From: a virus
Reading direction: 5' to 3' (one strand)
UHGV virus genome: UHGV-0250493
DNA length: 26,823 bases
The notes below the pieces were generated by a model. That model ran no database searches. It was not told the origin of the DNA and was given only the letters and a program-made list of their open reading frames with translations. Within the stretch, counting starts at the first letter, position 1. Each line of letters opens with the position of its first letter. The position numbers and the translations under genes are program-made. Shown piece after piece: positions 11,750 through 18,439 of this stretch.

Positions 11750-12340
11750 GTGCTGACAACGCAAAAACGAAAATTTGCGCTGGCGCTCATGTCCGGGAAA
11801 AACAAAACAGCGTCAGCCATTGCCGCCGGTTATTCGGCGAAGACCGCCAGGGTTAAAGGCTCGCAGCTGGCAAAAGATCCTGAGGTGCTTGCGTTTATAG
11901 CCCGTAAACAATGCGAGACGGTGGAGGTGGATGAGGTTCCTGTTTACCGGCAGAAAAAATCAGAGCAGGAGGATAAACCCCGTCGCCGTGAGGCGGCTGC
12001 AATACCACAGCCGGACGAAAACAATCTGGAGATGCCACCGTCCGCGGTGATGTCTCCTGGTATTGAATATATGGAGGATGGTCTTCCCGATCCGGTGAAA
12101 GCCATGGGGCGGATCCTGGTGGAAAACCTCTGCATTGATCCGAAACTGGCACTGGATGCGGCCTGGCGTCTGGCGCAGTTCACGCACCATAAAAAAGGGG
12201 ATACCGGGAAAAAATCGGCAAAAGATGATGCCGCGAAAAAAGCGGCTAACCGTTTTGCGGTGCCACCGCCACCCCGACTGGTGGTGAATCCGCCACCAGA
12301 GGTTCAACCCGGCTCCAGTCCAGAATACGCAGTTCTTTGA
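11750..12340 (+). CDS. terminase small subunit (C-terminal about 17 codons probably altered by a rearrangement junction)
   Basis: GTG start with GGAGGAGG RBS. N-terminal region KNKTASAIAAGYSAKTARVKGSQLAKDPEV typical of TerS. The 3' end overlaps, on the opposite strand, the end of the inverted portal fragment. Confidence 0.7.
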   Translation: MLTTQKRKFALALMSGKNKTASAIAAGYSAKTARVKGSQLAKDPEVLAFIARKQCETVEVDEVPVYRQKKSEQEDKPRRREAAAIPQPDENNLEMPPSAVMSPGIEYMEDGLPDPVKAMGRILVENLCIDPKLALDAAWRLAQFTHHKKGDTGKKSAKDDAAKKAANRFAVPPPPRLVVNPPPEVQPGSSPEYAVL

Positions 12341-12734
12341 TCTGCCCCCGGGCATTACGGATTTTCAGCACCACCGTATTGCCATGACGCAGTTTGGCGT
12401 TCAGCCACAGTTCAAAAAACTGGATGCGGTTCTGCTGGGCGTTGGGACGACGACAGAGGCGGGCAATATCCCCCCGGCGCGTTTCCCTGCGTATCCCATG
12501 CGCATCCGTCTGCATAAGACGCAGCCGCATTTTGGCGATATCCTGGGATATCAGCGAAATACATGCAAACACCGCATGAAAGGAGAGGACGGCTTCAGGA
12601 TCGGCTTTCACGCCCTGCTGCCAGGCGCCGGAAAAGGGCTCAGCCACCGCCTGAAACAGGCTGGTCCAGCCCGCCTCTCTTACGTCACGTCCTGATTTCT
12701 GGTTTTTTCGGGTTCGCCGTAAAAGGTTCCACAT
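12246..12734 (-). CDS. portal protein, N-terminal portion only (gene interrupted, inverted relative to its C-terminal part)
   Basis: ...SGAWQQGV...AVFACISLISQDIAKMRLRL...GNTVVLKIRNARGQIKELRILDWSRVEPLVAD matches the HK97-family portal N-terminus. After about position 12288 the frame runs 13 unrelated codons to a stop. Confidence 0.6.
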   Translation of the reverse strand: MWNLLRRTRKNQKSGRDVREAGWTSLFQAVAEPFSGAWQQGVKADPEAVLSFHAVFACISLISQDIAKMRLRLMQTDAHGIRRETRRGDIARLCRRPNAQQNRIQFFELWLNAKLRHGNTVVLKIRNARGQIKELRILDWSRVEPLVADSPPVGVAVAPQNG

Positions 12735-16608: not shown

Positions 16609-18439
16609 CCGTTGCCCTCATTATCGTTATGACGGCGAGGTGTTCTACCGCATCACGCCGGACCGGAACTGCGGGATCACGGAGGCGGTGACGGTGCCTG
16701 CCCGGGAAGTGATCCACGACCGGTTTAACTGTTTTTTTCATCCGCTTATAGGATTGCCGCCGGTGTATGCCGCCGGGCTGGCGGCCACGCAGGGGCATCA
16801 TATTCAGGAAAATTCGACGTCTTTTTTCAGAAATGGCGGCAGGCCGTCCGGGGTGATTGAGATCCCCGGCAGTATTACGGAAGAAAATGCGAAAAAACTG
16901 AAGAGCAACTGGGACAGCGGGTATACAGGCGAAAATGCGGGGAAAACGGCCATTCTGAGCAACGGGGCAAAATACAACCCCACGACGTTTTCACCTGTGG
17001 ATGCGCAGACGGTGGAACAACTGAAGATGACCGCTGAAATTGTCTGTTCGGTGTTCCGTGTCCCGGCCTACAAGATTGGCGTGGGACAACCGCCTTCCAG
17101 TGACAACGTGGAGGCGCTGGAGCAGCAGTATTATTCCCAGTGCCTGCAGACGCTGATTGAGTCCATTGAACTGTTACTGGATGAGGCGCTGGAAACGGGG
17201 GAAAACGAGAGTACAGAATTTGATGTCACCACGCTGCTGAGAATGGACAGTGAGCGGCGCATGAAAACGCTGGGGGATGCGGTGAAAAATACGCTTCTCA
17301 CGCCCAATGAGGCCCGTAAACGGGAGAACCTGCCGCCCCTGGCCGGCGGTGATGCACTGTATCTTCAGCAGCAGAACTACAGTCTGGAGGCGCTGTCCCG
17401 TCGTGATGCCCGTGAGGATCCGTTCGCGTCTGCCGGGAAAACAGTTTCATCACAGCTGCCTGACGGCGCATCTGACGGTAATAAGGCAATCAGTGAAACA
17501 GAGCATGATGCGGTGAAAGCGATGTTCAGGGGGGATACTGAGAAAATGACGGAACGGGAACTGTCCATTATTCGTGCACTGGGAGAAGAATTCTCCACAG
17601 TGCTGGCGGATTTACAGCGCACATTTGAGGGGAAGATGGCCTCGCAGGCACAAGCGTTTGAAGAGAAACTGACTTCCCTGTCGGCGGTATTACAGAAGCA
17701 TGTGACGGTGGATGAGGTGCGTCCGGTTCTGCAGGCGATGGTGGATGACGCTGTGGGGGCCATTCCGGTACCGCGTGATGGTCGTGATTATGATCCGGAT
17801 GTACTGCAGCAGGCGGTGAATGATGCGGTCGCAAATATTCCGCAGCCGGCGGACGGTAAAAGTCTCACCCCGGATGATGTGCGTCCGATGCTTGAACAGA
17901 TGGTGAAGGAGGCGGTAAGCCATATTCATGTTCCGCGTGATGGTCGTGACTACGATCCGGATGTTCTGCAGAAGGCGGTTCTGGATGCGGTGAGTGCCCT
18001 GCCGGCTCCGCAGGACGGGCGTGATGCCACGGCTCTGGAAATACTCCCCGCCATTGACGATCAAAAATCCTTTCCCCGGGGCACGTATGCCACACACCAG
18101 GGCGGACTCTGGCGGGCGTATGAAAAAACGCACGGGATGCGGGGATGGGAATGCCTGGTTGACGGGGTGGCGGATATTGACGTCAGCATGACGGGTGAGC
18201 GGTTGTTCTCTGTGGTGGTCCGGCAGAGCAGTGGCCAGCGTACGGAAAAAACATTTTCCCTGCCGGTGATGCTCTACCGCGGTGTGTTCAGAGCCGGTGA
18301 AACCTACCACCCCGGCGATACGGTGACGTGGGGGGGCTCGCTGTGGCACTGCAACAGTATGACCGAAGATAAACCCGGAGAAGCTCATTCATCAGCCTGG
18401 ACCCTGGCTGCAAAACGTGGGCGGGATGCAGGAGGCTGA
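16589..18439 (+). CDS. portal protein, middle and C-terminal portion with a long C-terminal extension (N-terminal part displaced to the minus strand)
   Basis: From about 16631: DGEVFYRI...REVIHDRF...FFRNGGRPSGVIEIPG...NAGKTAILSNGAKY matches the portal core. No portal N-terminus in this ORF. The first 14 codons overlap the TerL start on the opposite strand. Confidence 0.65.
   Translation: MLHTGIIRCPHYRYDGEVFYRITPDRNCGITEAVTVPAREVIHDRFNCFFHPLIGLPPVYAAGLAATQGHHIQENSTSFFRNGGRPSGVIEIPGSITEENAKKLKSNWDSGYTGENAGKTAILSNGAKYNPTTFSPVDAQTVEQLKMTAEIVCSVFRVPAYKIGVGQPPSSDNVEALEQQYYSQCLQTLIESIELLLDEALETGENESTEFDVTTLLRMDSERRMKTLGDAVKNTLLTPNEARKRENLPPLAGGDALYLQQQNYSLEALSRRDAREDPFASAGKTVSSQLPDGASDGNKAISETEHDAVKAMFRGDTEKMTERELSIIRALGEEFSTVLADLQRTFEGKMASQAQAFEEKLTSLSAVLQKHVTVDEVRPVLQAMVDDAVGAIPVPRDGRDYDPDVLQQAVNDAVANIPQPADGKSLTPDDVRPMLEQMVKEAVSHIHVPRDGRDYDPDVLQKAVLDAVSALPAPQDGRDATALEILPAIDDQKSFPRGTYATHQGGLWRAYEKTHGMRGWECLVDGVADIDVSMTGERLFSVVVRQSSGQRTEKTFSLPVMLYRGVFRAGETYHPGDTVTWGGSLWHCNSMTEDKPGEAHSSAWTLAAKRGRDAGG
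17717..18027 (+). repeat. tandem coding repeat (two units of about 150-160 nt) within the portal C-terminal extension
   Basis: Unit 1 (17717-17878) and unit 2 (17879-18027) both begin GTGCGTCCG and encode VRPxLxxMVxxAVxxIxVPRDGRDYDPDVLQxAVxDAV. Confidence 0.6.

What the first reader, a model, noticed from the sequence alone, without database searches (positions are those of the whole stretch)
12246..16631. Head/packaging module rearranged: portal gene split into two oppositely oriented halves flanking an inverted TerL-capsid block
TerS is on the + strand, but its last about 17 codons are unrelated proline-rich sequence. Directly after it, on the minus strand, lies the portal N-terminal region (12734 down to about 12288), then the protease-capsid fusion and TerL, all minus. 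The portal middle and C-terminal region resumes on the + strand at about 16631, with its first codons overlapping the TerL start. Portal similarity stops at about 12288 on one side and starts at about 16625-16631 on the other, pointing to an inversion of roughly 4.3 kb with breakpoints near those positions (possibly more than one event). If real, both the portal and the TerS 3' end are disrupted and the prophage cannot package DNA. The order also raises the question of whether this lineage originally had TerL-capsid-portal rather than the canonical TerL-portal-capsid.
Basis: partly seen in the sequence, partly recalled or inferred. Interest (0 to 1): 0.6.

Follow-up and report, generated by a model that had tools for sequence, protein, structure and literature searches.

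The report
Inverted head-gene block in dead prophage
A 4.3-kb piece of the head and packaging genes of a defective E. coli prophage has been flipped in one clean event, cutting the portal gene in two and damaging the small terminase; it is a real, inherited rearrangement, but an ordinary case of prophage decay.

Summary
Window 12288-16630 (4,343 bp) is inverted relative to every relative found: about 1,250 complete E. coli genomes and 95 phage records. All of their alignments break at 12288/12289 and 16629/16630.

Flipping this one segment back loses or gains no base. It restores a 187-aa TerS whose stop overlaps the TerL start (ATGA), and a 751-aa portal whose Pfam domain is covered in one stretch (the two fragments cover profile positions 2-92 and 94-321).

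The native order in this lineage (Pankowvirus-type Stx-phage head module, e.g. YYZ-2008 and BP-4795) is TerS-TerL-protease/capsid-73aa-portal.

It is not a misassembly. The two junction-specific chimeric proteins occur on 56 and 27 public contigs, the longest 4.98 Mb. Five independent loci, two of them from metagenome assemblies, carry both 60-nt junctions exactly.

No inverted repeat, IS or recombinase explains the event. Only a 2-bp AT overlap is present.

The prophage already lacked its tape measure: a 4.4-kb deletion is shared with the closest complete genome, AF58. AF58 independently deleted 5.2 kb of the same head module.

One oddity remains: both native breakpoints lie 3-5 nt 3' of a Chi-like CTGGTGG heptamer.

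Low interest.

The parts
11750..12340 (+). Chimeric small terminase (TerS) ORF, 196 aa. Native sequence runs to 12287 (179 codons plus 1 base). The last 17 codons are antisense portal sequence.
   Evidence: ORF. (PF03592 Terminase_2). (the restored TerS is 187 aa and ends in an ATGA overlap with TerL). (the exact 196-aa protein is on 56 public contigs).
12288..16630 (.). The inverted segment, 4,343 bp. A 2-bp AT overlap at each end (12288-12289 and 16629-16630) makes the crossover point ambiguous by 2 nt.
   Evidence: all relatives break here; 0 of 5,426 complete genomes span either junction. (flipping it back gives one continuous alignment). (GC skew reversed).
12246..12734 (-). Portal N-terminal fragment ORF, 162 aa. 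Portal codons 1-149 lie at 12734-12288. The last 13 codons are antisense TerS sequence.
   Evidence: (Phage_portal profile positions 2-92). (the exact protein is on 27 public contigs).
12680..12901 (-). 73-aa hypothetical gene that lies between capsid and portal in all relatives. It was carried along in the inversion.
   Evidence: (annotated as WP_001063099.1 / YYZ_gp53). No Pfam hit.
12946..14883 (-). Intact prohead protease-major capsid fusion, 645 aa.
   Evidence: Peptidase_S78 plus Phage_capsid. (99.98% nucleotide identity to the RM12761 prophage).
14947..16608 (-). Intact large terminase (TerL), 553 aa.
   Evidence: TerL_ATPase plus TerL_nuclease..
16631..18439 (+). Portal codons 150-751. 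They are read within the ORF 16589-18439; public gene callers start it at the GTG at 16763, giving 558 aa.
   Evidence: (Phage_portal profile positions 94-321)..
21139..21140 (.). Junction of a separate 4,423-bp deletion. It removed most of tail assembly protein T, the tape measure, gpM and the N-terminal part of gpL.
   Evidence: comparison with the intact AVS0543 prophage. (the same junction is present in AF58).

Best explanation
The window is the late region of a defective lambdoid prophage. Its HK97-type head module belongs to the Pankowvirus / Stx-phage group (YYZ-2008, BP-4795, 2851). The native order is HNH-TerS-TerL-protease::capsid-73aa-portal-connector.

One exactly reciprocal inversion of 4,343 bp (12288-16630) took place, with breakpoints in TerS codon 180 and portal codon 149/150. 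It arose by illegitimate recombination: there is only a 2-bp AT overlap, and no long repeat, IS or recombinase (inferred).

Consequences shown by the sequence:
- TerS loses its last 8 residues and its translational overlap with TerL, and gains 17 foreign residues.
- The portal is cut inside its conserved domain into two oppositely oriented fragments.

Consequences inferred:
- TerL, capsid and the portal N-terminus now lie antisense to the Q-antiterminated late transcript, so they should no longer be expressed with the late operon.
- The head and packaging module is non-functional.

The prophage was already tail-defective before the inversion, because the closest relative AF58 shares the 4.4-kb tape-measure deletion. 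The inversion is therefore most likely a neutral step of prophage decay. It is now inherited vertically in one E. coli sublineage, whose carriers have since diverged in portal C-terminal repeat number and in a 0.5-kb deletion.
For: Break positions: every relative's alignment breaks at 12288/12289 and 16629/16630.

Native order and annotation.

Restoration: the flipped-back sequence gives an intact TerS (187 aa, ATGA overlap with TerL) and an intact portal (751 aa). It aligns in one continuous stretch from 10898 to 17991 with native prophages.

Pfam: profile coordinates of the two portal fragments are complementary, 2-92 and 94-321.

Composition: GC-skew sign reversal is confined to the block.

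Reality of the arrangement:
- The chimeric TerS is on 56 contigs (longest 4,979,026 bp) and the chimeric portal-N on 27 contigs, from NCBI, ENA and Logan.
- L004-L008, from three NCBI assemblies and two ENA metagenome assemblies, carry both 60-nt junctions exactly.
- Carriers differ from one another by 0-14 SNPs, a 324-nt portal repeat difference and a 512-bp deletion.

Order of events:
- AF58 flanks are 99.98-100% identical to the window.
- AF58 has the native TerS-TerL junction, the same tail deletion and its own 5.2-kb head deletion.

Mechanism:
- No inverted repeat lies at the breakpoints.
- No recombinase or IS is among the annotated genes of the AF58 stretch that corresponds to the window's flanks.
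- No promoter-like site lies upstream of the inverted TerL.
Against: No reads were examined, so heterogeneity of orientation within a culture cannot be excluded.

Loss of function was not tested experimentally. TerL and capsid are still intact ORFs, which is expected for a recent event but also compatible with continued use.

A single origin of the inversion is inferred from identical junctions and a shared prophage background, not from a strain phylogeny.

The non-random position of both breakpoints next to CTGGTGG heptamers is not explained by 'random illegitimate recombination'.
Confidence: 0.92

Rival explanations
1. Assembly artefact: the 4.3-kb block is a repeat shared by several prophages, and an assembler or scaffolder placed it in the wrong orientation.
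For: The block is 96-100% identical in many prophages, and E. coli genomes often carry several copies (median 5 places per genome). None of 5,426 complete RefSeq genomes shows the inverted junctions.
Against: Exactly the same two junctions occur in independent assemblies made with different pipelines: NCBI WGS, a MEGAHIT-style k141 metagenome contig, a metagenome scaffold and Logan. One carrier contig is 4.98 Mb long. There is no repeat longer than 2 bp at the junctions that could mislead a k-mer graph. There are no Ns or gaps.
Confidence: 0.02
2. Programmed invertible segment: a site-specific recombinase flips the block as a switch that turns head-gene expression off and on.
For: - The exchange is exactly reciprocal.
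- It has a 2-bp overlap, the size of a serine-recombinase crossover core, and AT is palindromic, so it is compatible with inversion.
- The closest genome (AF58) has the native left junction on identical flanks.
Against: The breakpoints lie inside two essential genes and destroy both. There are no inverted-repeat crossover sites. Neither site has Din-type half-sites (AAACC nn GGTTT), as read directly. No recombinase gene is annotated in the AF58 stretch that matches the window's flanks. About 1,250 genomes have only the native orientation.
Confidence: 0.02
3. Same inversion, but produced by a Chi-like/RecBCD-linked or other sequence-directed breakage rather than by random illegitimate recombination.
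For: - In the native arrangement both crossovers lie 3-5 nt 3' of CTGGTGG on the same strand: CTGGTGG-TGA-AT and CTGGTGG-CGG-AT, with 10 of 12 bases identical.
- The chance that two random positions both lie 1-7 nt 3' of such a heptamer is about 4e-5 (post hoc).
- RecBCD cuts about 4-6 nt 3' of Chi, GCTGGTGG (PMC7641324).
Against: Both heptamers lack the first G of Chi. CTG-GTG-G is a common Leu-Val codon string, with 19 copies on this strand. The exchange is reciprocal with no base lost, which is hard to reconcile with RecBCD degradation from a double-strand end. Directly oriented similarity predicts deletion, not inversion. This is a single event, observed post hoc.
Confidence: 0.1
4. Multi-step rearrangement (two or more events).
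For: None specific. The same prophage has suffered other lesions: a tail deletion, and a 5.2-kb head-module deletion in its sister AF58.
Against: A single flip of 12288-16630 restores perfect collinearity with no base missing or added at either junction.
Confidence: 0.03

Closest known systems
Head/packaging module of Pankowvirus-type lambdoid (Stx-converting) phages: YYZ-2008 (NC_011356), BP-4795 (NC_004813), 2851 (NC_049943), and the homologous prophages of E. coli O145:H28 RM12761 and others
   Same: The inverted block shares 96-100% nucleotide identity with them. The genes are the same: HNH, TerS, TerL, S78 protease::HK97-fold capsid fusion, 73-aa ORF, long portal, connector, head closure and gp10-like. 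The non-canonical order, with capsid before portal, is also shared.
   Different: In the window the stretch from TerS codon 180 to portal codon 149 is inverted. As a result TerS is C-terminally altered and the portal is split. No phage record or complete genome has this arrangement.
Sister prophage in E. coli AF58 (NZ_OZ547038.1), integrated next to ompW-yciE-trpA
   Same: Flanks are 99.98-100% identical over 12.3 kb on the left and 8.9 kb on the right. It has the same 4.4-kb tape-measure deletion.
   Different: AF58 keeps the native TerS-TerL junction. It lost 5.2 kb, from within TerL to late in the portal, by a separate deletion with a 2-bp AA overlap.
Decay of cryptic and defective prophages in E. 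coli by deletion, IS insertion and rearrangement (established knowledge, e.g. the K-12 cryptic prophages and the defective prophages of O157 Sakai)
   Same: Lesions that inactivate morphogenesis genes accumulate in a resident prophage and are inherited clonally.
   Different: Here the lesion is a clean local inversion without an IS or repeats. This type is reported less often than deletions or IS insertions.
Din-family invertible segments (Mu G, P1 C, e14 P, Salmonella H)
   Same: A block of DNA a few kb long is inverted by a reciprocal exchange with a 2-bp crossover overlap.
   Different: Those systems have roughly 26-bp inverted crossover sites, an adjacent serine invertase and an enhancer, and they switch between two functional gene forms. 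None of this is present here, and both gene products are destroyed.

Membership tests
Pankowvirus-type HK97-like head/packaging module | TerS (Terminase_2), TerL (ATPase plus nuclease), S78 protease fused to an HK97-fold capsid protein, and a Phage_portal protein | tested here: met
   Pfam hits are above the gathering threshold for all four. The portal domain is present, but in two pieces.
Pankowvirus-type HK97-like head/packaging module | High nucleotide identity to reference phages of the group | tested here: met
   99.0% to YYZ-2008, 98.0% to 2851 and 96.2% to BP-4795 over 4,343 bp.
Pankowvirus-type HK97-like head/packaging module | Collinear gene order TerS-TerL-capsid-73aa-portal on one strand | tested here: not met
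   The block 12288-16630 is inverted. Collinearity returns when it is flipped back.
Functional (inducible, packaging-competent) prophage | Intact portal, terminase and tail genes | tested here: not met
   The portal is split mid-domain. The TerS C-terminus is replaced. The tape measure, gpM, most of gpT and the N-terminus of gpL are deleted. Actual particle production was not tested.
Site-specific invertible segment (Din invertase type) | Inverted-repeat crossover sites at both ends | tested here: not met
   Only a 2-bp AT overlap is present. The best inverted pair near the junctions (12334-12354 and 16699-16719, 71% complementary) is off-register and at background level among 362 pairs.
Site-specific invertible segment (Din invertase type) | Recombinase gene nearby | tested here: not met
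   No recombinase is among the 56 RefSeq-annotated features of the AF58 stretch, which matches the window at 99.98-100% apart from the 5.2 kb AF58 has lost. Pfam assigns the genes of the inverted block to terminase, protease/capsid and portal families; its 73-aa ORF has no hit.
Site-specific invertible segment (Din invertase type) | Both orientations coexist in one strain | not testable with these tools
   This needs reads or PCR from a carrier culture.
IS- or transposon-mediated inversion | An IS copy or target-site duplication at the breakpoints | tested here: not met
   No extra DNA is present. The restored sequence aligns base for base with native prophages.
Misassembly | Arrangement confined to one assembly or one assembler, with a repeat at least as long as the k-mer at the junctions | tested here: not met
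   Both junctions are present in five independent loci, and the chimeric proteins are on 56 and 27 contigs from three sources. There is no junction repeat.

The most novel reading that the evidence does not exclude
The inversion is a footprint of a sequence-directed breakage process rather than a random accident. In the ancestral arrangement both crossover points lie at the same register, 3-5 nt 3' of a Chi-like CTGGTGG heptamer on the same strand. That is the distance at which RecBCD cuts after Chi. If this is causal, Chi-like sites would be hotspots for reciprocal illegitimate rearrangements that disable prophages.
Probability: 0.08. Interest if true: 0.45.

Novelty: new member of a known kind. 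Interest (0 to 1): 0.2.

Why it matters
It matters little beyond annotation.

- It shows that the 196-aa 'terminase small subunit' and the 162-aa 'phage portal protein' deposited in public databases are junction chimeras of an inversion.
- It shows that this prophage cannot be counted as intact by prophage predictors.
- It shows that capsid-before-portal is the normal order in this phage group.
- The two 60-nt junctions are a convenient clonal marker for the E. coli sublineage that carries them.
- Together with AF58, the locus gives a small, well-resolved example of stepwise prophage decay: first a tail deletion, then independent head lesions.
- The Chi-like context of both breakpoints is the only point that might interest a recombination specialist. 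It rests on one event.

Tried and rejected
- Inverted-repeat search around the block. There were 362 background-level pairs and none at the breakpoints, so repeat-mediated inversion was rejected.
- IS or transposon involvement. Rejected because the flipped-back sequence is collinear with relatives base for base.
- Din-type invertase sites. Both native sites were read by eye and show no AAACC nn GGTTT half-sites. No recombinase is annotated in the AF58 stretch that matches the window's flanks.
- Two-step homologous recombination between inverted prophage copies. Rejected on logic: such exchanges keep each prophage collinear.
- Scans of IMG/VR and JGI metagenome contigs for the left inverted junction gave 0 hits.
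The immediate full-length, un-inverted ancestor with identical flanks was therefore not retrieved.
- Tandem Repeats Finder on the portal C-terminal region found nothing, although BLAST shows diverged repeats of about 162 nt.
- The 'YdfR family' proteins in the 90% cluster of the chimeric TerS were checked as possible further chimeras. They are unrelated sequences.
- A promoter scan found no sigma-70-like site that could drive the inverted TerL-capsid block. This is weak evidence only.
- Paper searches were aimed at the phage group's head genes and at Chi-like sites. No search for a description of this inversion itself was made.
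Full report
**What is in the window**

The region holds the late operon of a lambdoid prophage. ORF listing and Pfam identify these genes:

| Gene | Strand | Coordinates | Length | Pfam |
|---|---|---|---|---|
| HNH endonuclease | + | 11094-11459 | 121 aa | PF01844 HNH |
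| TerS ORF | + | 11750-12340 | 196 aa | Terminase_2 |
| Portal N-terminal ORF | - | 12734-12246 | 162 aa | Phage_portal, profile 2-92 |
| Small ORF | - | 12901-12680 | 73 aa | none |
| Protease-capsid fusion | - | 14883-12946 | 645 aa | Peptidase_S78 + Phage_capsid |
| TerL | - | 16608-14947 | 553 aa | TerL_ATPase + TerL_nuclease |
| Rest of the portal | + | 16589-18439 | 616 aa | Phage_portal, profile 94-321 |

Connector, head-closure, gp10-like and tail genes follow on the + strand. GC skew is positive everywhere in the window except about 12-16.5 kb, where it is negative.

**Comparison with relatives**

Megablast of 11500-18600 found the module in 1,286 of 5,426 complete E. coli genomes and in 95 phage records.

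- In every listed record the best match covers exactly window 12288-16630. In the phage records it is on the strand opposite to the query.
- No record covers 80% or more of the query in one place.
- 240-bp queries centred on each junction gave the same result. About 1,250 genomes match, all alignments stop at 12289 or start at 16629, and none spans a junction.
- Direct BLAST against two fetched loci places the three pieces at 10898-12289, 12288-16630 (inverted) and 16629-17991. This leaves a 2-bp overlap, AT, at each junction.

Annotated relatives give the native order. These are the RM12761 prophage, phage YYZ-2008 (genus Pankowvirus) and the AVS0543 prophage. The order is HNH, TerS, TerL, major capsid (protease fusion), 73-aa hypothetical, portal, connector, head closure.

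**Restoring the inversion**

I flipped 12288-16630 back in silico.

- TerS becomes 187 aa and ends ...PPPRLVVNNDNEGNG. Its TGA overlaps the TerL ATG (ATGA).
- The portal becomes one 751-aa ORF. Pfam covers it in one stretch, profile positions 2-321, with 272.8 bits.
- The restored DNA aligns with native prophages in one continuous alignment from 10898 to 17991. No base was lost or gained, so one reciprocal event is sufficient.
- The 17 C-terminal codons of the window's TerS ORF are antisense portal sequence. The 13 C-terminal codons of the portal-N ORF are antisense TerS sequence.

**Is the inversion real?**

Yes.

- The exact 196-aa chimeric TerS is on 56 public contigs from NCBI, ENA and Logan, the longest 4,979,026 bp.
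- The exact 162-aa chimeric portal fragment is on 27 contigs.
- Five loci were retrieved by exact-protein look-up: three NCBI assemblies, a metagenome scaffold and a k141 metagenome contig.
- All five contain both 60-nt junction sequences exactly and show the same gene layout.
- The carriers differ from the window by 0-14 SNPs, by 324 nt of portal C-terminal repeat (L004, L005) and by a 512-bp deletion (L006). The inversion has therefore been inherited and followed by divergence.
- The inverted junction was not found in IMG/VR or in JGI metagenomes. It is also absent from complete RefSeq genomes, so it is rare.

**History of the locus**

The closest complete genome is AF58 (NZ_OZ547038.1, a UK blood-culture isolate).

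- It is 99.98% identical to the window over 1-12289 and 100% identical over 17917-26823.
- It keeps the native TerS-TerL junction.
- It has its own 5.2-kb deletion from within TerL to late in the portal, with a 2-bp AA overlap.
- Both AF58 and the window share a 4,423-bp deletion that removes most of gpT, the tape measure, gpM and the N-terminus of gpL. Its junction is at window 21139/21140.

The inferred order of events is as follows. First came the tail deletion. Then two independent head-module lesions arose in sister lineages: the inversion here and the deletion in AF58. The prophage was already defective when the inversion occurred, which fits neutral decay.

**Mechanism**

- No inverted repeat lies at the breakpoints.
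- There is no IS and no extra DNA.
- No recombinase gene is annotated in the corresponding AF58 stretch.
- Neither site resembles a Din-invertase crossover site.

I therefore infer illegitimate recombination with 2-bp microhomology.

Functional consequences are also inferred, not tested.

- The portal is cut inside its conserved domain.
- TerS has lost its native C-terminus and its coupling to TerL.
- TerL, capsid and the portal N-terminus now lie antisense to the late transcript. No promoter-like site was found for them.
- TerL and capsid are still intact and 99.98% identical to those of other prophages, so the event is recent.

**An unexplained detail**

In the native arrangement the two crossover points lie at the same register after a Chi-like heptamer on the + strand.

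- The two sites read CTGGTGG-TGA-AT and CTGGTGG-CGG-AT.
- Their 12-mers are identical at 10 of 12 positions, in direct orientation.
- The heptamer is common on this strand, with 19 copies against 5 on the other strand.
- Even so, the chance that two random positions both lie 1-7 nt 3' of one is about 4e-5 (post hoc).
- RecBCD cuts about 4-6 nt 3' of Chi (PMC7641324).
- An exactly reciprocal exchange is not what RecBCD resection predicts, and direct similarity predicts deletion rather than inversion.

I leave this as a lead, not a claim.

**Verdict**

Misassembly and a programmed switch are rejected. The feature is a lineage-specific inversion in an already defective prophage of a well-known phage group. 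It is a new instance of a known kind of event, of low general interest.

Noticed in passing
window 21139-21140: Junction of a 4,423-bp deletion relative to the intact AVS0543 prophage. It removes most of tail assembly protein T, the tape measure, gpM and the N-terminus of gpL, with a 2-nt overlap. AF58 shares it, so it predates the inversion.
   Followed up: yes
L003 (AF58, NZ_OZ547038.1) 14700-14701, equivalent to window 16217 joined to 17917: The sister strain has an independent 5.2-kb deletion from within TerL to late in the portal (2-bp AA overlap). It keeps the native TerS-TerL junction on flanks 100% identical to the window.
   Followed up: yes
restored coordinates 12278-12289 and 16619-16630 (window 12278-12289 on + and 12288-12299 on -): Both native breakpoints follow a Chi-like CTGGTGG heptamer at the same register, and the 12-mers are identical at 10 of 12 positions in direct orientation. 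After the inversion the left junction reads as a near-palindrome, CTGGTGGTGA-AT-CCGCCACCAG. CTGGTGG is 19 versus 5 on the two strands of the window.
   Followed up: partly
window 11554-11674: Six of the seven TGTTAAC copies in the window cluster here, on both strands, in the 290-bp gap between the HNH endonuclease and TerS. This is probably the terminase recognition (cos/pac) region of this phage group.
   Followed up: no
window about 17700-18000 (portal C-terminal extension, residues about 383-751): The portal carries a long C-terminal extension beyond the Pfam domain. It contains diverged repeats of about 54 aa (VPRDGRDYDPDVLQ..AV.DAV) and a weak CBM_5_12-like hit near the end. Repeat number varies between strains: portal lengths are 751, 753, 805 and 861 aa, and there is a 324-nt difference among inversion carriers L004/L005 and the window. 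Tandem Repeats Finder did not detect it.
   Followed up: partly
L006 (GCA_902709715.2), equivalent to window 9790-10302: One inversion carrier has an additional 512-bp deletion in the Rz / lysis-protein region.
   Followed up: no
window about 4536-4695 and about 5175-5510 (from L003 annotation, offset -2000): The prophage late region carries tRNA-Ile and tRNA-Arg genes and an iraM (anti-adapter) gene upstream of the SASA esterase. hokD lies at the left end of the window and a TonB-family ORF at 10394-10720. This is typical Stx-phage-like cargo.
   Followed up: no
protein cluster of the chimeric TerS (P0002/P0004/P0010): The 90%-identity cluster that holds the 196-aa chimeric TerS has an unrelated 211-aa 'YdfR family protein' as its representative. 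This is apparently a clustering artefact of the database, not a biological chimera.
   Followed up: yes
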